64,000 nucleotides of DNA from Clostridia bacterium (GTDB lineage Bacteria > Bacillota > Clostridia > Christensenellales > CAG-138), in the NCBI GenBank assembly GCA_036677445.1, contig JAVBWI010000004.1, forward strand, positions 342,786-406,785. Direction: 5' to 3'. The position numbers were made by a program, and so were the translations under genes. Numbering within the stretch: the first letter of the stretch is position 1; every line of letters starts with the position of its first letter. This document shows positions 50,086 to 64,000 of the stretch, piece by piece. Below the pieces are notes generated by a model. That model worked only from the letters and a program-made list of their open reading frames with translations, searched no databases and had not been told where the DNA came from.

Positions 50086-52206
50086 TTATTGACCGGCCGG
50101 CATGATTCTTTGCAGTTCGCGAACGATATCTTCAATTCGATAGGGTTTTTGTACAGCGCCGCTAAAACCGTATGCATGATAATTGGACAATACGGGATTA
50201 TTGGAATAACCGCTCGCAACAATAGCAACAACATCGGGATTCATATCTTTCATGCATTTCATTGCCTCTTTACCGCCCATACCCCCCGGAATTGTGAGGT
50301 CTAATATAACGGCATCATAAGGTTTCCCCATCTTCATGGAATTTCTGTAAAGATCAAGCCCGTCAGCCCCGTCATGAACGGCATCCGCCATATAGCCATA
50401 CATTTTTAACAAATCAGCCAAGGAATCGGCTATGGATTCCTGATCCTCAATCAGTAATATCCGTCCATTACCCGGCTGAATTTCTTTTCCATTTGTTTGG
50501 ACTTCAGTTTTTTTACGAGATGCCGGAAGATAAATATGAAAAGCCGTGCCCTTTTCCTCTTCCGACTCAACCGTAATATAACCGCCATGCTTTTTTATAA
50601 TGGAATACGAAGTTGCAAGCCCAAGTCCGCTTCCTTTTTCTTTTGTGGTGAAATAGGGATCGAATATTTTGCTTAAGTTCTCGTTTGGGATTCCAATCCC
50701 CTGATCGATAACGGATAATTTTACATAACTTCCATGACTTATAGGCAGATTGTCGTTTGAGCCGGCAAAAAAATTATCAGCCGATATCCTTATAACGCCG
50801 CCGTTGGGCATAGCCTGATCAGCGTTAATAACCATATTGTTTATAACCTGGCTTATTTGCCCCTGGTCTATTTCCACAACATAGAGATCAGGGGCAAAAG
50901 AAAATTCGCACTTTACTTTGGAGCCCCGGAGGGCAAACCCGGCCGTATCCGATATCAGATCCGGCAATAAGGATGCTTTTTTTACCGGGCTTCCGCCTTT
51001 TGAAAAGGTAAGCAGTTGCCGCGTGAGCGATTCAGCGTTATGGCAGGTCTTTTCCACCATGTTCAGATATGGATAAACGCTTTCGTCGAGTTTGTATTTC
51101 TTTCTTATTAACTGCATGACGTTTAGTATCACTGTCAATTCATTATTGAAATCATGCGCAATTCCTCCGGCCAGAACTCCCAGGGATTCAAGCTTCTGCA
51201 CCTTTAATAATTCCATGTTGGCGCGTTCAAGTTCCGCGGTGCGCCTCGCAACAAGCTCCTCAAGATACTCCCCGCTTTTTTTCATTTGTTCCAGCAACAA
51301 AATATTCTCATAGGCTATCGCGGCCTGCATGCCCAATGTCATGGTTATCTCCTCATCCACATCGGAGAACCGCATACAATCCAGTTTATCCTTCAGGCAA
51401 ATCCAGCCGTAAACGCAAGTGGGAGAGGTAAACGGAACCGCCATGAGCGATTCCACTGATATGCCAGTTTCGCAGGTAAAAGAAGACGCCGACGGCCATC
51501 GGTACGGCAAGCGCCGGGTAACCACGCGATGTAGGATTTCTTCCGGGGGAAGCAAACCATCCGGACCGGAAGCAGCAGGCTCACCCTGGGCGTGGCTGAT
51601 AAAATACTCTTTTCCGCCATCCCTTTCAATCATCAGTACGGAATGCCTGCAATTGAAAAATTCGAGCAGGATTCGGGGAATACAGCACAGGAGTTTTTGC
51701 GGATCACGCTGTGCTACCATACTGTAGCTCAGATCCATCAGCACAGAAAGCTGAAGTCCTCCGATCTGCGAAAAAGACGATTCTGCTGGATTTTGACGGG
51801 GCACGTCCGTCACAGTCTGCAGATCTGTTAAGGCAGACGGAGCTCCCAGCAGCTCACTGACCGTCTTCAGAATAAACTCCGGATCGGAAGGCTTTGGAAT
51901 AACACGGCAGGTTCCATATGTTTCGTCCAAACGGATACTTTCCGGATAACGGCAGGAAGCGGTATAAAAAATGACGGGCGTCTTCTTCAGCGTCGATTCC
52001 AACCGCAGCTTGCGGACAAATTCCAGTCCGTCAATGGAAGGCAAAAGTATATCGCTTATAATAAGATCCGGCCGCTCATTGTATGCAAGCGTCAACGCCC
52101 CGGTACCCTCAACCGCCTCTAGTACATGATGTCCCGCGTAACTAAGCAGGCTAGCAAGCATTTGCCGGCTCATTGCGTGGTCTTCGACAATAAGGATAGT
52201 TGCCAT
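50086..52206 (-). CDS. Hybrid sensor histidine kinase (REC-GAF-HisKA-HATPase-REC)
   Basis: N-terminal receiver (DLIISDILLPSIDG), H-box GIAHDFNNELT, ATPase G-boxes (DQGIGIP, GSGLGLA), C-terminal receiver (AVILDLTIPGGMGG). Confidence 0.85.
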   Translation of the reverse strand: MATILIVEDHAMSRQMLASLLSYAGHHVLEAVEGTGALTLAYNERPDLIISDILLPSIDGLEFVRKLRLESTLKKTPVIFYTASCRYPESIRLDETYGTCRVIPKPSDPEFILKTVSELLGAPSALTDLQTVTDVPRQNPAESSFSQIGGLQLSVLMDLSYSMVAQRDPQKLLCCIPRILLEFFNCRHSVLMIERDGGKEYFISHAQGEPAASGPDGLLPPEEILHRVVTRRLPYRWPSASSFTCETGISVESLMAVPFTSPTCVYGWICLKDKLDCMRFSDVDEEITMTLGMQAAIAYENILLLEQMKKSGEYLEELVARRTAELERANMELLKVQKLESLGVLAGGIAHDFNNELTVILNVMQLIRKKYKLDESVYPYLNMVEKTCHNAESLTRQLLTFSKGGSPVKKASLLPDLISDTAGFALRGSKVKCEFSFAPDLYVVEIDQGQISQVINNMVINADQAMPNGGVIRISADNFFAGSNDNLPISHGSYVKLSVIDQGIGIPNENLSKIFDPYFTTKEKGSGLGLATSYSIIKKHGGYITVESEEEKGTAFHIYLPASRKKTEVQTNGKEIQPGNGRILLIEDQESIADSLADLLKMYGYMADAVHDGADGLDLYRNSMKMGKPYDAVILDLTIPGGMGGKEAMKCMKDMNPDVVAIVASGYSNNPVLSNYHAYGFSGAVQKPYRIEDIVRELQRIMPAGQ

Positions 52207-52212
52207 TGCATC

Positions 52213-52596
52213 CTACTCTTTTCTTCTGTTTGTTTGAATAAACGATTCAATCTGCCTGACGAATACTTCGGGTATAATCGGCTTGCTGATGTAATTATCA
52301 AATCCTGCGGCAAGTACCTTTTCCCTGTCTCCTACCATTGCGAGAGCGGTAACGGCAATAAGCGGGATATTTTTGAGTTGAGGATCATTTTTTATATAAC
52401 GCGCCACCCCGTAGCCATCCACCCTGGGAAGATGTATATCGCAAATGATCAGATCGGCCCTTTCCTGATGCGCCAGCCGTATTCCCTCTTCCCCATCCGC
52501 CGCCATAAGGACTGTATAGTTGAAAACCTGCAGCAGATAGGTAATGAGCTCAAGGTTGATGGAGTTATCCTCTATAACCAATATTCGTTCATGCAA
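52213..52596 (-). CDS. Single-domain response regulator (receiver only)
   Basis: 127 aa; [31 protein letters not shown]. All conserved receiver residues are present. Confidence 0.9.
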
Positions 52597-54229
52597 TATT
52601 TGTCAGCTCCTTATCTTTTCCCAGTACCAGCTGAAAGACGCTACCTTTGCCGAACTCGCTTTGAAATTCAATATGCCCGCCAAGCAATTCCGCCAGTTTT
52701 TTGCTTAGATGAAGGCCTAATCCCGTACCTTCATGCCGTCGGGCGCTGCTTGAATCCACTTGCGTAAAAGCCTGAAAAAGCTTGTCCTGATCCTCGGGTT
52801 TAATGCCTATTCCGGTATCCGATACGCTGAATTGCACCTGTGCCAGGCTATCGTCACACCGTAACTCTAACCGGACTTCTCCCTTTTCGGTAAACTTGAT
52901 CGCATTGTTGGCGAGATTGATCAGGATCTGGCTTACAGCCCGGCGGTCTGTATGCAGGATGATATCCTCATCCGGCATATTGCAGATTAATTTGAGGTAT
53001 TTATCATCCGCAATCGGACGAAGCGTATCGGCAATATCCTTTAGAACGCTTTTGCAGGATACCGGCTCCGGGTTTACCTCAACCTTGCCGGATTCTATCT
53101 TGGAAAGATCCAGAAGGTCGTTGATAAGCAAAAGCAAATGCTTGGCGCTTGCAGATATATTCTGGAGCTGCTTTTCCTGTTCGGCGTTAAGCGGTCCGGG
53201 CAGTTTCATCAAAAGCGTTCCGGTAAAGCCGATAATGGCATTGAGCGGCGTGCGCAATTCATGACTCATATTGGCAAGGAATCTGTCTTTGGCCAGCAAT
53301 GCATTTTCCAACTCGACATTTTTTTCCTGCAGCCTGTCCTCAGCCAGTTTCCGCTGCTCAATCTCCTGTTTCAGCTGTTTATTGGTTGCCTCCAAATCGG
53401 CCGTTCGTTCCGCCACCCTCTTCTCCATCTCGCCGTATGCCCTGTGCAGTTTTACCTCCGCCATATCACGCTCCGTCACATCGCGGAAAACTAAAATTAC
53501 GCCTATAATTTTTCCCCGGTCATCCTGAATAGGCGCGGCGCTGTCATCGATAGGAATTTCCCTTCCGTTCTTGGCAAGAAGCAATGTATGGTTGGCCAGG
53601 CCGACAACCGCCCCTTCCTGCATGACTCTTTCCGCAGGATTTTCAACGGTCAGGCGCGTATTCTTGTTTATAATCCTGAATACATCCGTCAGCTTCTCAT
53701 GCTGTGCCTCCTCTATCTTCCATCCCGTCAGTTCCTCTGCAACCATATTCATGAAGGTAACCCGGCCTTTGTCATCCGTAGCGATGACGGCGTCCCCGAT
53801 ACTTCTGAGTGTTGTCGAAAACCATTCTTCACTTTCTTTCAGCTTTTTTTCCATCTTGTGCTTATACAATGCCATGTCGATGGAGATATCCAGTTCGCGC
53901 TCCTTAAAGGGCTTGACGATATATCCATAAGGATCGGTTATTTTGGCGCGCTGCACCGTATCTTCATCCGCATAAGCGGTCAGATAAATCACAGGGATTC
54001 CATAGCTGGACATGATTTGCTTTGCAGCCCAAACCCCGTCGACCTCTCCGTGAAGCATGATGTCCATAAGCACCAGGTCAAAACTTATCTCCTCCGTCAG
54101 CTTGATCGCTTCTTCCCCGGATAATGCGATAACAGGGCAGGAATATCCTAAATTCATCAGCCTATGCTGAATATCCAGCGCCTCAATGCCTTCATCCTCA
54201 ACAATTAATATCTTGGCGTCAGTCATCAT
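52589..54229 (-). CDS. Hybrid sensor histidine kinase (REC-PAS-HisKA-HATPase)
   Basis: Receiver ([14 protein letters not shown]), a PAS region, H-box [11 protein letters not shown], ATPase motifs (DTGIGI, GTGLGL). Confidence 0.85.
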
Positions 54230-54240
54230 ACCGTCTCCTT

Positions 54241-57200
54241 TTATTTCATCGCTTCAAATAAAATGGTAAATCGGGTTCCGTTGTTTCTATCGATATAAAT
54301 TTCACCCTTGAGCTGCCTTACCAATATATTGACTATTTTAAGCCCCAGCGAATTGCTGTTTTGTATGATAAAATCGTCCGGCAGACCTATGCCGTTGTCA
54401 CCCACAACCAGCTTATACCTGTTTCCCGCGCCATGACGCAGATCGATTTGTATTTCTTTCTTCCGGTCAGGGCATCCGCCGGAAGCGGAAAAAGCGTATT
54501 TTAAGGCATTTGAAACAAGCTCGTTCATAATCAGAGCGCAGGGGATTATCGTATCGATGTTTAGCGTAATATCGTCTACGTATATTTTAGGGCTTATACT
54601 CCTCTCGCTAATACCATAAGACAAAAACAGATTGGCGATTAGGTTTTGAATATATTCAGGCAGATTGATCCTCGCCAGCGATTCGGACTGATACAGTTTT
54701 TCATGAATAAGCGCCATCGTGAAAATCCGGTTCTTGCTCTCCTTTAGTAACCCGATAACCAGTTCATCCGTAGTATAAAGCGATTGAAGGTTCAGCATGC
54801 TGTGAATGATCTGGAGATTGTTTTTTACGCGGTGATGGATTTCCTTAAGAAGCACCTCTTTTTCATGCAGGGCTGAACGCAAATGCGCCTCGCTGTCGTA
54901 TAGCTCCTCATTGGCAGCCGCAAGCTCGGCCGTCCGTTTCATCACGCGCTGTTCGAGTTCCCGGTTGAGCTTTTGTATTTCCGCCTCGGCCTTGTTGCGG
55001 TCGGTAATATCGATGCCCATCTCCAGAATAAGATTGGAGCCATCCGCGTCTACAAACGGGAAATCAAAAACGTCATAATCGCGGCCGTCCGGCCCGGTCC
55101 ATTTCCAGCTGCAGGGGGATTTTGTTTCCAAAACGCCGTAGGTTTGGCAATTCTCACATGGCTTATCGTGACCAAACAGGAATTCGAAGCAGCGCTTCCC
55201 ATGCGCTTCGCCAAAGCGCTCCCGAAATACGCGGTTGGCAAAGGGCGCGTGATAATCCGGGGTTAAGAGAACCACATATACCGGGAGTATCTCTAAAATT
55301 TCATTGAACCGCCGCTGTTCGACTATTACCTGCTCCTCGGCCTGCTTGCGGCGGGTAATATCTTCCTCCAATAGCTGATTGGTTCTGGCCAGTTCCGCAG
55401 TTCTTTCCAGAACCCGCATCTCCAGCTCCGCCTTTGCGCCCCGCAGCGCCTCCTCCGCCCGTTTCATCTCGTCCACCAACCGGGAATTTTCAAGAGAAAT
55501 TGCCGCCTGTGATGTCAGCAATTCCGTTAATTGCGTCTTTTCCGATGTAAAAACGGCGTCCGACAGACGGTTTTCCAGGTATAACACGCCTATCTTCTTG
55601 GACTGTTTGATAACCGGCAGGCAAAGAACAGATTTTAGCCGCATATGCCGGACCTCCGGATTATCCTTAAATATTCCCTCCTGCGCGGCGTTATTCAGTA
55701 CCAGCCGCTCTCCCGTCCTGTAAACGTAACGGGCAATGGCTTTGCAGATATCCCGCGTATCTTCCAGTTTTCTGTTGACCGTCCGTATGATTTGCTTTTT
55801 TACGACATGGCTTTCCGCATAGACAAACAGGCCATCGTTTTCCTGTATCAACAAATATCCGTGCTGTGCGCCGGAACTCTCGATCACCACATTCATAATC
55901 TTTTTTAACAGAGTATCCTGCTCTATTTCGGCGGCAATCGCAATAGACGATTTCATCAGATAATCAATATCCAGCGGAGGAAGGATATTGGGTGCGGCCG
56001 TCTCCAATTCCAATTGCGGAACGACCGCTTTCTCTTCCTTGAAATATTCAGGATATTTATTGATAAGATTTGATTCCTTGCGTTCCGCCCCACACGCCCG
56101 GTATAACCTGGCTGCCTCGGCAAAGTAAACCCTCTGCGTGCATTGGCCGGACTTCAACAGCAGTTCTCCAAGGCACTCATTGAGATGCCCTTCCAGAAAC
56201 GTATATTTTTGTTCATGTGCGATATTGATCGCGTCAAGATATAAGCTTCTGGCCTCTTTGAAGCTGCCAGCCACCCTTTCCCGTTCTGCGTATAAAAAGG
56301 CAAGGTAAGGTTTCAATAAGGGGCCTAAAGCCGCCCAGGTTTCAATTTTTTCAACAACAGGCCGGATTTCTGCTATAAGCTCATCAAAAGCACCGCCGGA
56401 TTCCTGTTCGAACAATTTCAGCTTGTTTAAAACCAAAAAGACATGCCATTGCCTTTTTAGAACGTTATCGGTAAGGCCGGATAAATATCGCTTTACCTCC
56501 TCGAGATACCGCCCCGCTTCTTCATATTCTCCAAAATAGTAATGGGATATCGCCATATGGACGCAGTAGCTGCCGGCCGAAGCAATATGATTATCCTTTT
56601 CCCACAAACGAAGCTTTTCATCCATTGATACATGGACGCAGTTCTTTTTCATGTGCCCGACCCAGCCGGCTTGCATCGCCTCGGCAAGTCTGGCTGAAAA
56701 TGCTAAATTGAATCGGTTCGAAAATTGAAGGCACTCGTTTGCATAGTCTTCAATTGCGGACATATCGGCGCCCTGCACCTGGAGATTCCACATTAACGGT
56801 CCGTAAGAAAGCCCCGCATTATACAGGTCGCCGCAGTTTTTCCCGCATTGGATCGACTTTAAGCAATACTCCACAATCTGCTTCGGATGGCTTCTTGAGT
56901 GCATATTGCACCATACGATACCGTTCATGCCCCTGGTTGCGCCAAAAGTATTCGGATATTTTGCGGAGAGATCGCGCGCAAGGTCCTCAAACCTGAATGC
57001 CTGTTCAAAGTCCCCCTGCTCTCCCAATAGAAGCCCCATGATGCTGAAGGAATATATGACCGATTCATCCATACCACCCGAGAGGCAATGCTGGGTAGAC
57101 TGCGCAGCGGAAAGATAAAGCTGCGGTACAAGGCCGGACATATACAGGTCGGGTATCAGCTCACTGTAGAAGGCAAGCTCAATTTTGCTCTTCCGTTCAT

Positions 57201-59856
57201 TTGTAAAAGGCATATTCAGGATCGCCTCATAAATATCGAAATCCTTTGCGAATATGTCGGATATCAGTCTCTCCCTTTTTCTTTGCGCTTTAACTGGGTC
57301 TTCCGGGATAGTCTTTCCAAAAATGCTGAGTCCTTTGTTGGCAGTCTCGATTGCTTTTATAAAATTGCCGATGGAAGACAACGAGGTCGTTTGTTCCGCC
57401 AGGCATTCTCCCTTGTCCAGGTCGGTTATTGCTTGATCCAACAACAGATTGAGCAACCTTTCGGAATTTGTGTAGTTCCCGCACATGAGCTCGGTTTTTG
57501 CCGCTTTTTTCAATATACTGAAGGTGCGCTGATAATGGGTTCCATTCCAGCAATCGTCCGGCAACAGCGATCTGCTGATTTGGAAATACTCATTTGCCGC
57601 TTCTGTAGCAAGCGTGTCAAGCGCCTTGTTGCCGGCATAGTAGTTTAAGTCCGACAGAAAATAGGCTTGCTGCCCGATTACTTTTTCTTCTTTCCCCATA
57701 TTAAGGTGTGAAACGATCGCAAAGAGGTTTTCTGCTTTTTCCAGCTCCATATCCGCCGGAATCGTTGTGAGGAGATAGTTTCCTACTTTTCGGTGTATCT
57801 GCCGCCGGTCCTCTGCCGGAATTAAGGATAATACCGCTTCCTGCACTCGATCATGTATGAATTGCAGCTGGCCCTTGTTCTCTATCAGCAGTCCCTGGCT
57901 TAGAACTGGTTTTAGCAGCTCATACAGCTCAAATAGAGACATTCCATTGATAGCGGAAATATCATTGGGTGAAAACGAATTCCCCATACACGCGCAATAT
58001 TTGAGCAAACCTGTCAAGCCCGGTGCGAGCTTCTGAATTTTAGCGCTAAAAAGCGCAACTACCGTAGTCGGCATATGCGATTGATTAACTTTGCCAACGT
58101 CCCAGCACCATTGCCTTTTTTCATCGAAAAAAAGCAGGCCTTCGTTGTAGAGATACGAGAGGCTTTCACTGACAAAAAGCGGGTTGCCTTCGCTTAGGGT
58201 GCTGATAAAATCCGACAATGTTTTGGTTTTTGAGCGGGGTGAATCGAGGATATAGGAAACCATCTCATGACAATGATGCGGTTTCAAAGATTCTAACCTG
58301 ATTTCCGTTAAAGGCCAGCCGCTGATCTTTGCATTTGTGATAAGCTTTGAGAGTGGGTGACTTGAATCAACCTCGTTATGACGGTATGCTCCCAGCAGGA
58401 AAAAGTAGGGATGATCCCTGTAATTGGCCATTATATTTGATAAAAAGTCAAAGGAGGCCATGTCGCACCATTGAAGATCGTCTATAAACAACGTCAATGG
58501 GTTTTCTTCACTGGCCAGACAAGTCAGAAACCGGTCAAAAAGATCATGATACCGGTTCAATGCCTCGACCGGCGGAAGCGCTTTTACATCGGGCTGCGGG
58601 CCAATCAGTATTTCCAATTCCGGGATAGCGTCAGTCAATACCCTGGCATTATTTCCTACTGATTGTAAGATTCTTTTTTTCCAGTTTGCAGCCCGCTCAT
58701 TGCTTTCGGTCAGAAAAGTTCTGATCAAGTTTTTAAGAGCCTGTATCAAGGAGCTATAGGGAATATTTTTTTGATAGATATCGAACTTTCCAGATGTAAA
58801 ATAGCCCTTATGCTTGACAATAGGATTTTGCAACTCCTGTATCAGGCGGGTCTTTCCTATGCCGGACAACCCGGATATCAGCAGCGAACGGAATTCACCC
58901 TTGACCACCTGCTCGTATTCCTGAAGTATAGTCCCGGCCTCTTTATCCCGGCCTACCATTTTGGAAACAAAGGGTATTTTTTGAATGCTTACGCATTTTT
59001 CTAAAAGAAATTCGCGTATTGCCCCGGTTTTTGCGTACTCAGCCTGGCATCGCATTAGGTCGGTTAAGAGCCCGCCGGCGCTTTGATAGCGTTTTTCCGG
59101 CTGCTTTATGATTAGTTTCGCAATGATTTTGCTTAATGCAACGGGGATATCCGGGTTGTGTATATGAACCTGAGGGGCTTCTTTTGCAAGATGTGAATGA
59201 ATCAATTCCAGCGGATCATCCGAATAAAACGGCAATTCGCCTGTCAATATCTCATAAAACACAATGCCCAGTGAATATAGGTCGGAAGAGAAAACAACCC
59301 GATGATTGATGCGTCCCGTTTGCTCCGGGGATGTATATGATAACGTATTTCTGATAAAGGAACGATCATAGATAAAATGGCTGACATCCCTGACATCCAC
59401 GGTGCTGATAAAATCTATTAATCTGATATCCGATATATTTGAACCGACAAGGATATTGTGCGGTTTAATTCCGCCATGGATGATTCCGGCTTCATGAATT
59501 TTCTCTAAAGCCTGTGTGAGTCTGTAAGCTAAAATAAAAAAATCGCTTAACGGTAATTGAGGATGCTCCTTTATAAATACATCAAGCGAAATCCCATTAA
59601 AATACTCCTGCGTTATAAAGCACATGCCATCTTTTACTTCAAAGGAATCCGGTGTAATCAGCAGTGGGTTTTTTATAACCTTAAGGTGCTCAATCTTCTG
59701 ATCAAACTGGGCTTTTTTATATCCGGAAAAATTTATTGATTTTAATACTTTAAGAACAAGTGTCTGATTCGGATTTGCTTGATGATATACCTTGAAGACG
59801 GCAGTGTGTGGAACCTCGGCTACCTTTTCTACTATTTCATAATTTAATATTTTCAT
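54241..59856 (-). CDS. 1871-aa multidomain signalling protein: degenerate Ser/Thr-kinase-like domain, AAA (AAA_16/STAND-like) ATPase, TPR-like region, GAF, PAS, HisKA_2-type histidine kinase
   Basis: Kinase-like N-terminus ([30 protein letters not shown]); Walker A GLSGIGKT and Walker [11 protein letters not shown]; GAF ([20 protein letters not shown]); PAS with CENCQ; H-box [13 protein letters not shown]; ATPase [20 protein letters not shown]. Confidence 0.85.
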
Positions 59857-59947: not shown

Positions 59948-60742
59948 CTATGCGACACCTTCCGGAAAACTGGCCATTTCGCGGCCATGTTTCATTAACA
60001 GCCTGTCCGCCACAAGCGCTATGAATTCTCCATTGGTGGGTTTATCGTACTTTGAATAGATTTTGCAGTCAAAGAATTGGTTAATATTTTCAATCTTGCC
60101 GCGTTCCCATGCAACCTCTATTGCATGGCGGATGCCTCGCTCTACTTTACTTGACGTTGTTGAGAACTGTTTCGCGATACAGGGGTATAGCTCTTTCGTC
60201 AGGTGGTTAATGAGTTCGGGGTTATTGAATACCATTCGAATTCCTTCCCGGAGATAATGATACCCTTTAATATGTGCCGGGATTCCGGTAGCGAGAAAAA
60301 TGAGCGTGATTTCTTCGCTAAGCGTTTTCGGCGGCTGAGGCGAGGCAGACTTACTTGTCTCCGGCTGCGCCGTTGTAAGCATATCCAGCATCCTCTTGTA
60401 CAGCGTTTCCGGCTCTATAGGTTTCGCCATGTAATATCTGGCGCCTAGTGTGAACGCGTAACGGATCATACTCTCGTTGCGGATAGCGGAGACCACGATC
60501 ACCGCCGGCTGTTCGCCCCCAATCCTTCTGAGATTCTCAAGTATGCCCAGCCCATCCAGCTTCGGCAAAATTAGACCCATCAGCAGGGCGTCGTACCGCT
60601 TTAAACGCATTTTCTCAAGGGCTTGACGTCCATCCGTAGCAATATCCACCAACTGTACTTTTTCCTGCGCAGAAAGGTACTTGTATACGAAATCACGGTA
60701 CTGCGGATCGTCATCCACGAGCAGAACAGCATACTTAGACAT
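59948..60742 (-). CDS. Spo0A-family transcription factor with an atypical receiver (Gly at the phospho-acceptor position)
   Basis: The C-terminal domain is near-canonical Spo0A (GIPAHIKGYHYLREGI, SKVERGIRHAIEVAW, KPTNGEFIALVADRL). The receiver aligns gap-free with B. subtilis Spo0A but reads LLMGLILPKLDG where Spo0A has LVLDIIMPHLDG. The start is taken at the ATG at 60742, after AAGGAG. Confidence 0.85.
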   Translation of the reverse strand: MSKYAVLLVDDDPQYRDFVYKYLSAQEKVQLVDIATDGRQALEKMRLKRYDALLMGLILPKLDGLGILENLRRIGGEQPAVIVVSAIRNESMIRYAFTLGARYYMAKPIEPETLYKRMLDMLTTAQPETSKSASPQPPKTLSEEITLIFLATGIPAHIKGYHYLREGIRMVFNNPELINHLTKELYPCIAKQFSTTSSKVERGIRHAIEVAWERGKIENINQFFDCKIYSKYDKPTNGEFIALVADRLLMKHGREMASFPEGVA

Positions 60743-60796
60743 TTGATTCTCCTTGTCCCCTGCTATTTCATTTATAATCTTAACCGATGGCCGAAA

Positions 60797-60917
60797 TTCG
60801 TCACGAAAACCGAAAAAATAATAATTCAATTTGTCAGTATATAATAGTATAATAGCATGGTAAAATTACCGTTACAAGTTAGAATGTGTCAGGTAATTTG
60901 TCGAAAAATAGGTCGAA
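60797..60917. promoter_or_regulatory. 0A-box-like heptamers in the divergent promoter region
   Basis: TGACGAA on the minus strand (60797-60803), TGTCGAA (60899-60905) and GGTCGAA (60911-60917) on the plus strand. The consensus 0A box is TGNCGAA. Confidence 0.4.
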
Positions 60918-61071
60918 TGAGGCGTACCAAATCGTACCGGGACATGTAGCGTAAAGTAAAAACCTTATCAAATTATCGGATAATATGCTGCGCGACGGTA
61001 TACTTATAAGACCGTTGCAAATATGTTTACAAAACATCATGCCTACAAGCTAAGAGAGTTGTGGAAAACAT

Positions 61072-61584
61072 ATGAAAGAAAAAACCTGCTGTTTTGCCGC
61101 ACAAAACCGGCGGATTATATCCGACGAAGATAATCCCGGTTGCATTAGGCTTATTCTTAAAATTACTCTGGAGATCGAGTTAATGATAAAAAAAGGATGC
61201 AATACATTCATAACCGGAATGGATTGGAGGTCGGAGCTTTGGTTCGCAGAAGCAGTACTTGATTTGAAACGTGCTTATCCACAAAAAAGTATTAATCTTA
61301 TCGTCGTTCAGTATGCGGGGCAAGCCTCACGATGGAACAAATATTATCTGGATCGTTATAAACGCGTACTCTTGCACGCCGATGATAAGGTAACATTAGG
61401 GGCAGACTATTATAACGGTTATATGCAGCAGTTAAATCAATATATGATAAGGCATTCGGCTCACATGATAGCTTTATTTGCCGGCAGGAAGGAACCTGTT
61501 ATAGCTTCCGATCCGGATACAGTGATTATAAACCCAAACGACTTTTTCGTGAAAAAGCCGCGCATTTTTTCAATCGTAAAATAG
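61072..61584 (+). CDS. DUF1273 / SLOG-family protein (YpsA-like)
   Basis: 170 aa; KTCCF..., CNTFITGMDWRSELWFAEAVLDLKRAYP and LNQYMIRHSAHMIALF resemble the YpsA/DUF1273 family. The usual TGHR-type N-terminal motif reads FAAQNRR here. Confidence 0.6.
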   Translation: MKEKTCCFAAQNRRIISDEDNPGCIRLILKITLEIELMIKKGCNTFITGMDWRSELWFAEAVLDLKRAYPQKSINLIVVQYAGQASRWNKYYLDRYKRVLLHADDKVTLGADYYNGYMQQLNQYMIRHSAHMIALFAGRKEPVIASDPDTVIINPNDFFVKKPRIFSIVK

Positions 61585-61629
61585 CGGGTTAGCTTAGCAT
61601 CTAAACCATTAAGGAAGCAGGAATAATAA

Positions 61630-62013
61630 GTGTCACATCGAATTTTGATTGCCGATGATAACAAGGACTTTACCAGTATTTTTAAAGACTACATTTCCTT
61701 ATATAATGATATCGAACTTGTTGGAATAGCGGAAAATGGCTGCAAGACATATGAAATGCTGTTGCAGGAAAAGCCTGACCTGTTAATTTTGGATCTTGTT
61801 ATGCCTGATATGGATGGAATCGAAGTCCTTCGCCGGATTCGTGACATGGACGGCGTCAAACCCGCAATATTCGTGATTTCCGCGCTTAGCAACGATGCTA
61901 TCACCCGTGAGGCTCTGACGCTGGGAGCTTGTGCTTATTTCATTAAGCCAATCAACCTTGAATCTATCGTCTCTCGAATACGCGCAGTTATGCAAACCAC
62001 GTCACAAGTTTGA
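61630..62013 (+). CDS. Stand-alone Spo0A-type receiver domain protein (no DNA-binding domain)
   Basis: GTG start. The 127-aa product aligns gap-free with the Spo0A receiver (ILIADDNKDF, ELVGIAENG, PDLLILDLVMPDMDGIEVL, ISALS, YFIKP) and stops right after the receiver. Confidence 0.8.
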   Translation: MSHRILIADDNKDFTSIFKDYISLYNDIELVGIAENGCKTYEMLLQEKPDLLILDLVMPDMDGIEVLRRIRDMDGVKPAIFVISALSNDAITREALTLGACAYFIKPINLESIVSRIRAVMQTTSQV

Positions 62014-62049
62014 GATGAAGTCTTGCTCCGGATTAAACTCATAGCCTGC

Positions 62050-62270
62050 TGACAGGCCTCTTAGGGGGTGTGGGGGATCAAAATCCCCACACCTATTCAA
62101 AGTGGTTTTTCGAACAATAAAAAGGGGCTGTCGCGCTAAATGTTCAGGCACTTAGCACGACAGTCCGGGTTCGTGCCCAAACAGGGCAAAATCGGTCCGA
62201 CGGGCCGATTTTAGAACCCCTTTACCTTTCGCATTATGCACTGAAAATGCTTAATGCGGCAACCCCTTTT
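62050..62270. repeat. Multi-hairpin intergenic repeat array 5
   Basis: GGTGTGGGGA-tcaaaa-TCCCCACACC; CTGTCGCGCTAA...TTAGCACGACAG; AAAATCGG...CCGATTTT; and the terminal hairpin TCGCATTATGCA-ctgaaaa-TGCTTAATGCGG (62229-62258) followed by CCCCTTTTT. It shares modules with array 2, and GGGGGTGTGGGGGA with array 3. Confidence 0.8.
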
Positions 62271-62353
62271 TATCGATCTTACAGCATCTACCATACCTTC
62301 GCCGCTACGCTTTTGCAGCAATGCAGGGACAGCACCGGCACTCCTTAATCTGT

Positions 62354-62641
62354 CTATTTATATACCGTAGTATAACCTTCCATAGAATGGCGATGGCCAT
62401 CGTTATAAGTGGTTAACCCTCTGTAATGGTGATCATGCCCGCCATTTACATTTTCCTCGGGCCCGGTAGTAAATTCAAACCCGTGTAAATGGTTATCATT
62501 AATTGTAGTACGCCCATTGATGCGATGCGTATGTCCTTTTATATTCGGGCTGGCGCTCGTCTCACCGTCATAATAGTGAATATGGCCGTCATTTAAGGTT
62601 GTTTGGCCTGTAAATCTATGCGTATGCAGTCTCATCGACAT
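62354..62641 (-). CDS. ymaF: YmaF-family His-rich repeat protein
   Basis: The start is taken at the ATG at 62641, after GAGGTG. Four repeats of H-x-H...G-x-T...D/N-x-H-x-H/Y (HTHRFTGQTTLNDGHIHY, HTHRINGRTTINDNHLHG, HDHHYRGLTTYNDGHRHS). Confidence 0.75.
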   Translation of the reverse strand: MSMRLHTHRFTGQTTLNDGHIHYYDGETSASPNIKGHTHRINGRTTINDNHLHGFEFTTGPEENVNGGHDHHYRGLTTYNDGHRHSMEGYTTVYK

Positions 62642-62877
62642 AAGAATCACCTCTTATTGACCATTTTATGTAAACGCTTTTTTTGTGTGCCTGAACGTGC
62701 ATTGCATATAAGAATATTAAGCGTGTCTTTTATACAATATCTTGTGGTGTGAGGATTCGGAAAAATTTAGAAAAAACGCCCACTTCGCGTTAATGTGGCA
62801 AAAGGCGGGCATTTTACTTATATAAGTAATACTGTTTTCACAGATTCAGTTTATATGAAAGCGAGCCTCGATTCTAC

Positions 62878-63190
62878 TGTGAAACTGCACCCAAAAGATA
62901 GACAGTGTGGTACACTGAATAATGGAAGGGGGGCAGTTTCATGCCCAGAGGGAAGCCCAACAAAGAGTATACAGGAGAGTTCAAGCAATTTGAGATTCCA
63001 AATCACGAGCGGGTGCGGCAATGGGAACGTATTTATCTGGAGGAAGGCTCTGCGGGGCTATATGTGGAACGGCGAGGCCATGGCGGAAAGGGGCGTCCGC
63101 CAAGCTGGACAAGCAGGTAGAAGAAGATCTGACAGCTGAAAATCAGCGGCCTCGGGCTGAGAATGCGTACCTAAAAAACTTGCAAAGCTT
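62878..63190 (+). pseudogene. IS3-family (IS150-group-like) insertion-sequence remnant: left end plus decayed orfA, no orfB
   Basis: A TG-initiated candidate terminal repeat TGTGAAACTGCACCCAAAAGATAGACAG at 62878. The reading frame from ATG 62941 gives MPRGKPNKEYTGEFKQ / FEIPNHERVRQWERIYLEEGSAGLYVERRG and then needs a frameshift near 63100 to continue as KLDKQVEEDLTAENQRPRAENAYLKNLQSL, an IS3 OrfA leucine-zipper-type tail. No DDE transposase follows. Confidence 0.6.
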
Positions 63191-63191
63191 A

Positions 63192-63228
63192 AGGGCTTGC
63201 CGCCCGCTCTTCACAGGCGGCAAGCCCT
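63192..63228 (-). terminator. Terminator-like hairpin downstream of the flavoprotein gene
   Basis: 13-bp perfect stem AGGGCTTGCCGCC (63192-63204) / GGCGGCAAGCCCT (63216-63228). On the minus strand the T-run begins about 14 nt after the stem. Confidence 0.5.
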
Positions 63229-63260
63229 CTCGGCTGCCCATGACGCCCGGGCAGATGCTG

Positions 63261-64000
63261 TTACTTCACGTAGGAGGCGGCCTCCCGACCGGCGATACGG
63301 CCGCTGCCAAAGGCGTACATCATAGTGGTGCCGCAGATGTCGTAGTAAGGCTTGTGGTACATGCTGCCGCCATCCTGACCCGCCACATAGAGGCCAGGGA
63401 TCGGCTTGTTGGATGAATCGAGCGCCTGCAGCTTTTCGTTCACCTTCACGCCACCCAGCGTACCAAAGCAACCAGGGAGGAATTTCACTGCATAGAACGG
63501 CCCCTCCGCAATAGGGATCAGGTATACGTCGCGCTTTAAGAGATCCGTATCTTCGCCTGCGGCGACCAACTCGTTGTAGCGTGCCACGGTGGTGGAAAGA
63601 TCCGCAAGGCCGGTTTCGTCTTGGAGCGTCTTGATGCTGTTCGCCTTCCAAACGAAGCCGTTTTCAATGCCGAATCCCATCTCGCGCGGGAGCTCGCTCA
63701 ACGGCGAATTTGCCCCAGCGAACATGGGCGGCACGCCGGAGGTGGAGCCGTAGAAGCTCAGCCGCTCCAACTGCGGGGCCTGCTTTTCCGCCTCGTCTGC
63801 GGGCAGTAACTCCTTGAGGCCGCCCGCTACCAGCATATCGTATGTCTTCTGATCGAAAATGACATAGTACGCTCCCATGGAGGAAGCGGCTGCGCCGCCC
63901 TGATTGAGCGGCTGCTCGCGGAACAGGGCCTCGTTGAAGTAGCGATCTCCGTTGGAGTTGACCATCAGTAGCGCTGCTACCGAGAGCAGGTTGATATGGA
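63261..64000 (-). CDS. FAD-dependent oxidoreductase (fumarate-reductase/flavocytochrome-c flavoprotein family), C-terminal part; 5' end outside the window
   Basis: The frame stays open to the window edge. The C-terminal motif GLYVAGQDGGSMYH...GSGRIAGREAA is typical of this family. Confidence 0.75.
   Translation of the reverse strand, partial: HINLLSVAALLMVNSNGDRYFNEALFREQPLNQGGAAASSMGAYYVIFDQKTYDMLVAGGLKELLPADEAEKQAPQLERLSFYGSTSGVPPMFAGANSPLSELPREMGFGIENGFVWKANSIKTLQDETGLADLSTTVARYNELVAAGEDTDLLKRDVYLIPIAEGPFYAVKFLPGCFGTLGGVKVNEKLQALDSSNKPIPGLYVAGQDGGSMYHKPYYDICGTTMMYAFGSGRIAGREAASYVK

What the first reader, a model, noticed from the sequence alone, without database searches (positions are those of the whole stretch)
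61630..62013. Stand-alone Spo0A-type receiver with an intact Asp, encoded 0.9 kb from the Asp-less Spo0A paralogue
The 127-aa product (GTG start) matches the Spo0A receiver better than the neighbouring full-length paralogue does: ILIADDNKDF, IELVGIAENG, KPDLLILDLVMPDMDGIEVLRRIR, FVISALS, AYFIKP. It ends immediately after the receiver, and I see no effector-domain remnant in any frame downstream, where a hairpin array follows. The locus therefore encodes a phosphorylatable Spo0A receiver without an output domain, and a Spo0A output domain whose receiver cannot be phosphorylated. Possible readings are a split or in-trans regulatory pair, a phosphate sink or Spo0F-like shuttle derived from Spo0A, or a truncated spo0A copy. 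It appears co-transcribed with the DUF1273/SLOG gene, with a 45-nt gap.
Basis: partly seen in the sequence, partly recalled or inferred. Interest (0 to 1): 0.55.

Follow-up and report, generated by a model that had tools for sequence, protein, structure and literature searches.

The report
Stand-alone Spo0A-type receiver, SLOG-linked
This is a real, conserved small signalling protein that is just the phosphate-receiving half of the sporulation master regulator Spo0A; it is always encoded behind a YpsA-like gene and usually beside sensor kinases, and in this lineage next to a Spo0A copy that can no longer be phosphorylated, so it is not a broken gene.

Summary
ORF 61630-62013 (+, GTG, 127 aa) is a complete receiver domain with every catalytic residue (D9/D10, D55, S84, K106). 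It scores far better against Spo0A receivers than against Spo0F, CheY or any other regulator, and better than its neighbour's own receiver does. No Spo0A DNA-binding remnant lies downstream.

It is not a recent truncation. Homologues at 40-98% identity are all stand-alone (121-150 aa), and dN/dS is 0.09-0.19.

The most constant partner is the upstream YpsA-family SLOG gene. SLOG then REC recurs in six independent loci, plus one locus where the REC has decayed. Soluble PAS/GAF histidine kinases lie beside most family members. A divergent Spo0A paralogue lacking the phospho-Asp sits next to the pair in four loci (Gly here and in a 97% relative, Glu in two others). It is absent from at least one long contig. 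Asp-less Spo0A also occurs elsewhere with no REC nearby.

Best reading: a functional single-domain response regulator of Spo0A ancestry, phosphorylated by neighbouring kinases and acting through protein contacts. The most likely contact is the SLOG partner. An in-trans pairing with the Asp-less Spo0A copy remains an open and more novel option. I rate it a new variant of a known kind, of moderate interest.

The parts
61630..62013 (+). Stand-alone Spo0A-type receiver (single-domain response regulator), 127 aa. The phospho-acceptor D55 is at 61792-61794.
   Evidence: The AlphaFold2 model has pLDDT 91.4 and a full (beta-alpha)5 fold; the best PDB match is phosphorylated Spo0A-N, 1qmp, TM 0.88-0.89. 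dN/dS is 0.09-0.19.
61072..61584 (+). YpsA-family SLOG protein, 170 aa, 45 nt upstream of the receiver. It is the receiver's conserved operon partner.
   Evidence: Pfam PF06908 scores 53 bits. The profile hits B. subtilis YpsA (2nx2) at E 3e-8. SLOG then REC order is seen in the window, L008, L090, L091/L092, L093 and L145/L146, and as a decayed REC in L144.
60840..60862 (+). Conserved promoter/operator block TATAATAGTATAATAGCATGGTA upstream of the SLOG-REC pair.
   Evidence: The block is nearly invariant in the window, L008, L090, L091 and L093, although the proteins are only 42-78% identical. It is unique in the window.
60899..60917 (+). 0A-box-like pair, TGTCGAA ... GGTCGAA, in the SLOG leader.
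   Evidence: A TGTCGA core sits at the aligned place in L093 and a degenerate one in L091. A single box is not above chance window-wide (6 found, 6.6 expected).
59948..60742 (-). Spo0A-family regulator, 264 aa, with Gly in place of the phospho-Asp. It is transcribed divergently from the SLOG-REC pair.
   Evidence: TIGR02875 scores 255.5 bits and Spo0A_C 131.5 bits. The sequence reads LLMGLILP with codon GGT. The L091 and L093 counterparts have Glu.
54241..59856 (-). 1871-aa Ser/Thr-kinase / AAA_16 / GAF / HisKA_2-HATPase protein directly downstream of the Spo0A-family gene. It is a candidate phosphodonor.
52589..54229 (-). REC-PAS-HisKA-HATPase kinase (546 aa).
52213..52596 (-). Second single-domain receiver (127 aa) of a generic, non-Spo0A type.
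   Evidence: The same type recurs in L093 and L005.
50086..52206 (-). REC-HisKA-HATPase-REC hybrid kinase (706 aa).
62005..62270 (.). Highly structured convergent intergenic region (several hairpins) between the receiver gene and ymaF (62354-62650, minus strand). It probably holds the terminators.
   Evidence: There is no Rfam match.

Best explanation
The gene encodes a functional single-domain response regulator that descends from a Spo0A-type receiver domain and has been stand-alone for a long evolutionary time. It is transcribed with the upstream YpsA-family SLOG gene from a conserved promoter. I infer that it is phosphorylated on D55 by the soluble PAS/GAF (KinA-like) and HisKA_2 histidine kinases encoded beside it. 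Its kinase-docking helix alpha1 keeps the classic Spo0A pattern (DDNKDF..I..Y.S). Having no output domain, it must act through protein-protein contact. I commit to its constant operon partner, the SLOG protein, as the most likely target; YpsA-family proteins inhibit cell division in Bacillus and Staphylococcus. On this reading the module is a kinase-fed branch parallel to Spo0A. The Asp-less Spo0A paralogue next door would be a lineage-specific addition, possibly regulating the operon or regulated by it.

Shown: intact catalytic residues and fold, Spo0A ancestry, conservation as a stand-alone gene, purifying selection, and synteny with the SLOG gene and with kinases.

Inferred: phosphorylation by these kinases, co-transcription, and the SLOG protein as target.
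For: - **Spo0A-type receiver:**
- **Intact active site, invariant across the family:** D9, D55, S84, K106 and P107.
- **Confident full fold:**
- **Stand-alone homologues:** 121-150 aa at 51-98% identity, and about 15 more 50%-identity clusters at 42-54%. Full-length Spo0A-like proteins reach at most 50% identity.
- **Purifying selection:** dN/dS 0.19 against L008 and 0.09 against L090; synonymous sites are saturated against the others while 55-62% amino-acid identity is kept.
- **SLOG then REC in six independent loci:** the window, L008, L090, L091/L092, L093 and L145/L146. A REC pseudogene sits behind SLOG in L144.
- **Conserved promoter block upstream of SLOG in five loci:**
- **Kinases adjacent in the window, L093, L145, L005 and L012:**
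- **Alpha1 helix:** matches clostridial Spo0A at 8 of 14 positions and its own neighbour at 2 of 14 (alignment).
- **YpsA function:** PMC6459960.
Against: - No expression, phosphorylation or interaction data exist.
- The SLOG proteins lack YpsA G53, a residue needed for YpsA activity (PMC6459960). They are only distant YpsA relatives, so a cell-division role is an extrapolation.
- More distant members of the REC family (L002-L004, L005, L012, L014) have no SLOG gene within the DNA held, so SLOG cannot be the universal partner of the wider family.
- The conserved adjacency of an Asp-less Spo0A in four loci is not explained by this model alone.
- The organism is unidentified, and it is unknown whether it sporulates or has another spo0A.
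Confidence: 0.55

Rival explanations
1. Split response regulator. The phosphorylated stand-alone receiver binds the pseudo-receiver domain of the adjacent Asp-less Spo0A paralogue as a receiver/pseudo-receiver heterodimer. It thereby switches that protein's DNA-binding domain on or off, so phosphorylation control is supplied in trans.
For: - The divergent arrangement of an Asp-less Spo0A next to SLOG-REC is kept in the window, L008, L091/L092 and L093. In these loci REC identity is only 59-62% and Spo0A identity is about 55-60%.
- The Asp is replaced by Gly (GGT) here and by Glu (GAA) in L091 and L093. Each is one step from an Asp codon, which suggests two independent losses inside the module. 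The REC keeps its Asp under purifying selection.
- The paralogue keeps the acidic pair, the Ser and the Lys, and keeps the Spo0A recognition helix SKVER.IRHAIEVAW.
- An 0A-box-like pair lies in the shared intergenic region.
- There is precedent for typical/atypical regulator heterodimers: BldM-WhiI (PMC4125116), CmrR-CmrT (PMC12548384) and a review (PMC12632262).
Against: - SLOG-REC occurs with no Spo0A_C within 10 kb in L145 and without it upstream in L090.
- Spo0A proteins of the same clade lose the Asp (Gly, Ala, Glu) at the 'HD-gene then spo0A' locus with no REC or SLOG within 6 kb. Asp loss therefore does not require an adjacent REC.
- In L005 the neighbouring Spo0A-like protein keeps its Asp.
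- The two receivers are only 33.6% identical and fall in different clades.
- No interaction could be computed with the tools available.
Confidence: 0.2
2. Phosphate sink or Spo0F-like shuttle. Because it looks like a Spo0A receiver, it competes for, or relays phosphoryl groups from, the kinases that feed the organism's real Spo0A, or the hybrid kinases of the cluster. It thereby tunes the threshold or timing of that pathway.
For: - The receiver is of Spo0A type with a classic alpha1 docking helix.
- It sits next to KinA-like soluble PAS/GAF HisKA kinases in most loci, and next to hybrid kinases in the window and L145.
- Single-domain receivers commonly play such roles (established knowledge: Spo0F, CheY-type sinks).
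Against: - It is not a Spo0F relative (54 bits against 97 for Spo0A).
- The Spo0F marker neighbourhood used by Davidson et al. (PMC6136694) did not appear among the flanking genes scanned.
- No Hpt or Spo0B-type domain was seen in the cluster genes scanned.
- This model does not explain the strict linkage to the SLOG gene.
- The presence of a phosphorylatable Spo0A in this genome is unknown.
Confidence: 0.2
3. It is a recently truncated or decaying spo0A copy (a pseudogene fragment) with no function of its own.
For: An IS3-like transposase fragment and a synteny break lie 0.7-1 kb downstream. In one relative (L144) the REC has indeed decayed.
Against: - The ORF ends at the same domain boundary in all homologues down to about 40% identity.
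- There is no Spo0A_C remnant downstream.
- dN/dS is 0.09-0.19.
- The gene and 200 bp downstream are collinear with L008, so the rearrangement lies beyond it.
Confidence: 0.03

Closest known systems
Spo0A receiver domain (N-Spo0A; PDB 1qmp/1dz3, 9phz)
   Same: It is the best sequence and structure match: 97 bits; TM 0.88-0.89, rmsd about 1 A. The catalytic residues are the same, as is the ADDN[KR][DE]F alpha1 pattern and the K-P motif.
   Different: There is no linker and no Spo0A_C DNA-binding domain. The score is below the TIGR02875 cut-off (129.9 against 200). The motifs MPDMDG and SALSN replace MPHLDG and TAFGQ. The gene is not at a spo0A locus.
Spo0F (single-domain phosphorelay receiver of Bacillus)
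   Same: It is a stand-alone receiver of about 125 aa and is likely fed by soluble PAS-containing kinases.
   Different: Sequence similarity is much lower (54 bits). It does not group with Spo0F in the tree. The Spo0F marker neighbourhood and a Spo0B gene were not seen among the genes scanned (PMC6136694).
Typical/atypical response-regulator pairs (Streptomyces BldM-WhiI; C. difficile CmrR-CmrT)
   Same: A phosphorylatable receiver and a pseudo-receiver regulator of the same family are encoded side by side. Heterodimer control is an obvious hypothesis (PMC4125116, PMC12548384, PMC12632262).
   Different: In those pairs both partners carry DNA-binding domains. Here the phosphorylatable partner has none, and the two receivers are only 34% identical. 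No interaction has been shown.
Spo0A paralogues of Clostridiales
   Same: Extra spo0A genes are known: 10 of 118 Spo0A-encoding genomes have two and one has three (bioRxiv 10.1101/2022.02.25.481979). The neighbouring 264-aa gene fits this pattern.
   Different: In my searches of the paper library I found no description of stand-alone Spo0A-type receivers or of SLOG linkage.
YpsA (B. subtilis SLOG protein, PDB 2nx2)
   Same: The upstream gene belongs to the same Pfam family and keeps E55 and W57.
   Different: It is distant (E 3e-8). It lacks G53, has an MK[ED]xxCCFA N-terminus, and is linked to a receiver rather than to gpsB (PMC6459960).

Membership tests
Response-regulator receiver domain (PF00072), phosphorylatable type | Score above the Pfam gathering cut-off and a (beta-alpha)5 fold | tested here: met
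   81 bits against a cut-off of 30.2. The AlphaFold2 model has pLDDT 91.4 with five strands and five helices. TM to 1qmp is 0.88.
Response-regulator receiver domain (PF00072), phosphorylatable type | Catalytic quintet: acidic pair, phospho-Asp, Thr/Ser, Lys | tested here: met
   D9, D10, D55, S84 and K106 are present. D9, D55, S84 and K106 are invariant in the eight-member alignment.
Response-regulator receiver domain (PF00072), phosphorylatable type | Actually phosphorylated by a kinase or a small phosphodonor | not testable with these tools
   This needs biochemistry.
Spo0A (NCBIfam TIGR02875 equivalog) | Whole-protein score at or above the curated cut-off (200 bits) | tested here: not met
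   129.9 bits, covering profile positions 4-125 only.
Spo0A (NCBIfam TIGR02875 equivalog) | C-terminal Spo0A_C DNA-binding domain (PF08769) | tested here: not met
   It is absent from the ORF and from all frames downstream.
Spo0A (NCBIfam TIGR02875 equivalog) | Receiver closer to Spo0A receivers than to any other regulator family | tested here: met
Spo0F | Stand-alone receiver | tested here: met
   127 aa with a single domain.
Spo0F | Sequence affinity to Spo0F, and the Spo0F gene neighbourhood (aldolase, transaldolase, CTP synthase) as used in PMC6136694 | tested here: not met
   Spo0F chains score about 54 bits against 97 for Spo0A. The genes scanned around it are SLOG, ymaF, an FAD-binding protein and the Spo0A/kinase cluster.
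Spo0F | Transfers phosphate to a Spo0B-type phosphotransferase | not testable with these tools
   No Spo0B or Hpt domain was seen in the cluster genes scanned. The rest of the genome is not available.
Receiver/pseudo-receiver heterodimer pairs (BldM-WhiI type) | A typical and an atypical (Asp-less) receiver protein encoded or expressed together | tested here: met
   The window, L008, L091/L092 and L093.
Receiver/pseudo-receiver heterodimer pairs (BldM-WhiI type) | Physical heterodimer with a regulatory consequence | not testable with these tools
   No complex prediction or assay was available.
SLOG-linked stand-alone Spo0A-type receivers (the group defined here) | Receiver of 121-150 aa, at least about 55% identical to the query, directly downstream of a YpsA-family gene on the same strand | tested here: met
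   The window, L008, L090, L091/L092, L093 and L145/L146.

The most novel reading that the evidence does not exclude
The stand-alone receiver is the detachable, phosphorylatable 'receiver subunit' of the neighbouring Asp-less Spo0A paralogue. REC~P docks on the pseudo-receiver and gates its 0A-box binding, giving a split Spo0A in which sensing and output are separate polypeptides. The SLOG protein would be co-expressed as a second, nucleotide-linked input or output.
Probability: 0.15. Interest if true: 0.75.

Novelty: new variant of a known kind. Interest (0 to 1): 0.5.

Why it matters
Spo0A is the master switch for sporulation and for many stationary-phase decisions in Bacillota. How clostridial lineages wire kinases to it is still being worked out. 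A conserved family of free-standing Spo0A-type receivers points to an undescribed branch of Spo0A-type signalling. These receivers are tied to a YpsA-like (cell-division-associated) SLOG protein, to soluble PAS/GAF kinases and, in one lineage, to Spo0A copies that have lost their phosphorylation site.

The module offers a natural test case for two questions:
- How are pseudo-receiver transcription factors controlled? This is an open question according to PMC12632262.
- How do new single-domain regulators arise from multidomain ones?

The limits are that the organisms are uncultured or unidentified, and that nothing here has been tested experimentally.

Tried and rejected
- **Remnant search:** tblastn with the neighbour's Spo0A_C domain against 61901-63300 found nothing. 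This rules out a frameshifted full-length gene.
- **Genome-collection scan with the REC family alignment:** The top hits were mostly full-length Spo0A at 34-48% identity, plus two stand-alone genes (L012, L014). The window's own species was not among the loci returned.
- **Metagenome scan with the SLOG alignment:** it returned only remote SLOG relatives (34% identity or less), none with an adjacent REC or Spo0A_C. This was uninformative for co-occurrence.
- **Organism identification:** The listing of cluster members returned no names. I could therefore not test whether the genome has a second, canonical spo0A.
- **First bootstrap tree:** the Biopython run timed out. I replaced it with my own NJ and bootstrap. 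Deep nodes are poorly supported, so monophyly of all stand-alone receivers is not established.
- **Rfam on 60700-62900:** no match, so there is no known riboswitch or sRNA in the SLOG leader or the hairpin region.
- **PADLOC:** only faint hits (under 19 bits) to one candidate family for the two receiver proteins and nothing for SLOG or YmaF, so I rejected a defence-system reading.
- **0A-box count:** window-wide counts are not above chance. Only the position of the pair is suggestive.
- **One dN/dS row (REC against L093):** it was computed out of frame and is disregarded.

Full report
**1. The observation**

The ORF 61630-62013 (+) exists as described: GTG start, 127 aa, TGA stop. AGGAA lies 8 nt upstream, and homologues share the N-terminus.

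It is a receiver domain (Pfam PF00072, 81 bits). Its affinity is specifically to Spo0A:
- NCBIfam TIGR02875 gives 129.9 bits over profile positions 4-125. The next 24 families listed (NarL, CheB, RssB, OmpR, CheY and others) give 67 bits or less.
- Among solved structures, Spo0A receivers score 97 and 94 bits, Spo0F about 54 and CheY 57-65.
- An AlphaFold2 model is confident (pLDDT 91.4) and has a complete five-strand, five-helix fold. Its best PDB matches are the phosphorylated Spo0A receiver 1qmp (TM 0.88-0.89, rmsd 1.0-1.2 A).

The catalytic residues D9, D10, D55, S84 and K106-P107 are all present.

Against ten clostridial and two Bacillus-type Spo0A receivers the ORF scores 88-116 bits, while the neighbour's own receiver scores 72-89 bits.

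No Spo0A_C remnant exists downstream in any frame. The region 62005-62270 is a run of hairpins (z = -6.1) with no Rfam match.

**2. The neighbour**

The gene at 59948-60742 (minus strand, 264 aa) passes the Spo0A equivalog cut-off (255.5 against 200 bits) and has a Spo0A_C domain. At the phospho-acceptor position it reads LLMGLILP with codon GGT, and the 97%-identical relative L008 has the same codon. This is therefore not a sequencing error.

Its receiver lies in a 100%-bootstrap clade with Spo0A proteins annotated from Clostridia, Eubacteriales and Christensenellaceae MAGs. It is only 33.6% identical to the stand-alone receiver. The stand-alone gene is therefore not a recent copy of its neighbour's N-terminal half.

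**3. Not a truncation**

- The word-indexed search found only stand-alone proteins of 121-150 aa at 51-98% identity.
- The exhaustive representative search added about 15 more single-domain clusters at 42-54% identity. The nearest full-length Spo0A-like proteins reach at most 50%.
- All of them end at the same alpha5 boundary.
- dN/dS is 0.19 against L008 and 0.09 against L090. Against more distant members synonymous sites are saturated, yet 55-62% amino-acid identity is kept.
- The window is collinear with L008 through the gene and 200 bp beyond it. The indel (62214-62354) and the synteny break (after 62690, followed by an IS3-like fragment) lie further downstream.

**4. Gene neighbourhoods**

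*SLOG then REC, same strand, with a short gap:*

| Locus | REC identity to query |
|---|---|
| Window | – |
| L008 | 98% |
| L090 | 78% |
| L091/L092 | 62% |
| L093 | 59% |
| L145/L146 | 55% (SLOG 40%) |

In L144 the SLOG gene (48% identity) is followed by a frameshifted, N-terminally deleted REC remnant. This shows that the pair is ancestral and can decay.

A 23-nt block, TATAATAGTATAATAGCATGGTA (60840-60862), is nearly invariant upstream of the SLOG gene in five loci. This argues for a shared, regulated promoter.

*Spo0A-family gene divergent from SLOG:* this is seen in the window, L008, L091/L092 and L093. All lack the Asp (Gly, Gly, Glu, Glu). GGT and GAA are each one step from an Asp codon, which suggests two independent losses (inference).
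- It is absent within 10 kb in L145.
- It is absent from the flank available in L090.
- In L005 (REC 55% identical, no SLOG) a Spo0A-like gene with an intact Asp lies two genes away.

*Kinases:* soluble PAS/GAF HisKA kinases, often hybrid, flank the receiver in L005, L012, L093 and L145. The window carries four signalling genes downstream of the Spo0A gene. One is an 1871-aa Ser/Thr-kinase/STAND/GAF/HisKA_2 protein.

*No signalling context:* the L002-L004 group lies between a glycosyltransferase and a polysaccharide deacetylase.

*Asp-less Spo0A without a REC:* in the neighbour's clade, both P0175 (Asp present) and P0181 (Gly) sit at an 'HD-domain gene then spo0A' housekeeping locus with no REC or SLOG within 6 kb. 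P0177 (Ala), P0187 (Gly) and P0279 (Glu) also lack the Asp. Asp loss in this Spo0A lineage therefore does not depend on an adjacent stand-alone receiver.

**5. Mechanism**

Shown:
- The protein has every sequence and fold feature of a phosphorylatable receiver.
- It descends from a Spo0A-type receiver.
- It has been maintained as a separate gene under purifying selection.
- It is linked first to a YpsA-family SLOG gene and second to cytoplasmic sensor kinases.

Its alpha1 helix (NKDFTSIFKDYISL) matches clostridial Spo0A (NKDFCDILYEYLSK) at 8 of 14 positions. It matches its neighbour (DPQYRDFVYKYLSA) at 2 of 14 (alignment). It is therefore built to dock on Spo0A-type phosphodonors.

I infer that it is phosphorylated at D55 by neighbouring kinases and acts by protein contact. 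I commit to the SLOG partner as the most probable target because it is the only constant neighbour in this clade. B. subtilis and S. aureus YpsA inhibit FtsZ-dependent division (PMC6459960). However, the module's SLOG proteins are distant relatives and lack G53, so that function is extrapolated.

Two rivals remain alive:
- In-trans control of the Asp-less Spo0A paralogue by receiver/pseudo-receiver heterodimerisation. BldM-WhiI and CmrR-CmrT are the closest precedents (PMC4125116, PMC12548384, PMC12632262).
- A phosphate sink or shuttle acting on the kinases of a canonical Spo0A.

The three are not mutually exclusive.

**6. Comparison with what is known**

Single-domain response regulators, Spo0A paralogues (bioRxiv 10.1101/2022.02.25.481979) and pseudo-receivers are all known kinds. 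In the paper library I found no description of stand-alone Spo0A-type receivers, of their linkage to YpsA-like genes, or of Asp-less Spo0A paralogues paired with them.

The protein fails Spo0A membership because it has no Spo0A_C domain and scores below the cut-off. It fails Spo0F membership on sequence and on neighbourhood. It is best described as a new, conserved variant: a Spo0A-derived single-domain regulator.

**7. Verdict**

Interest is moderate (0.5).

Noticed in passing
window 60840-60862 (also L008 7211-7233, and upstream of SLOG in L090, L091, L093): The 23-nt block TATAATAGTATAATAGCATGGTA is nearly invariant upstream of the SLOG gene in five loci whose proteins are only 42-78% identical. 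It is unique in the window. It is probably a shared promoter/operator, possibly bidirectional.
   Followed up: partly
window 60899-60917: A perfect 0A box, TGTCGAA, and a GGTCGAA 12 bp further on lie about 37 nt downstream of the conserved block. A TGTCGA core lies at the aligned position in L093 and a degenerate one in L091. The second box is mutated in L008. The window-wide count of TGTCGAA is at chance level.
   Followed up: partly
window 62005-62270, 62214-62354 and 62690 onward: The convergent intergenic region between the receiver gene and ymaF folds into several hairpins (z = -6.1). A 141-bp stretch (62214-62354) is absent from the 97% relative L008. Synteny with L008 ends at 62690. Beyond that the window carries an IS3-like orfA fragment (62941-63120) and the start of an FAD-binding/TetR block that L008 lacks.
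   Followed up: partly
window 52213-52596 (-); L093 2230-2646 (-); L005 6640-6969 (-): A second, non-Spo0A type of single-domain receiver, with the motif I[IF]CDIxxP..DG[YF].VA, recurs in three of the loci that carry the Spo0A-type stand-alone receiver. This hints at a multi-receiver network.
   Followed up: no
proteins P0177, P0181, P0187, P0279 (loci L097-L099 for P0181): Spo0A proteins at the housekeeping 'HD-domain gene then spo0A' locus in related Clostridia MAGs also lack the phospho-Asp (Ala, Gly, Gly, Glu). P0279 (Glu) was seen on 894 contigs. Phosphorylation-independent Spo0A may be common in this lineage.
   Followed up: partly
L144 10500-10700: Directly after a SLOG gene (48% identical to the window's) lies a frameshifted, N-terminally deleted remnant of the stand-alone receiver (LILDIVMPNM / IEVLRWIHD..VFMISAIS / AIACEAMALGSCA in three frames).
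   Followed up: yes
window 54241-59856 (-): An 1871-aa protein combines a Ser/Thr protein kinase, an AAA_16/STAND NTPase, TPR, GAF and a HisKA_2-HATPase histidine kinase. It lies immediately downstream of the Asp-less Spo0A gene and is conserved in L008.
   Followed up: no
window 61072-61584 (+): The module's SLOG proteins share an invariant N-terminus, MK[ED]xxCCFA. They keep YpsA E55 and W57 but replace G53, a residue required for YpsA activity in B. subtilis.
   Followed up: partly
window 62354-62650 (-): A 98-aa YmaF-family protein with repeated His-rich GHxH / NDxHxH units is convergent with the receiver gene. It is also present in L008, where no gene was called for it.
   Followed up: no
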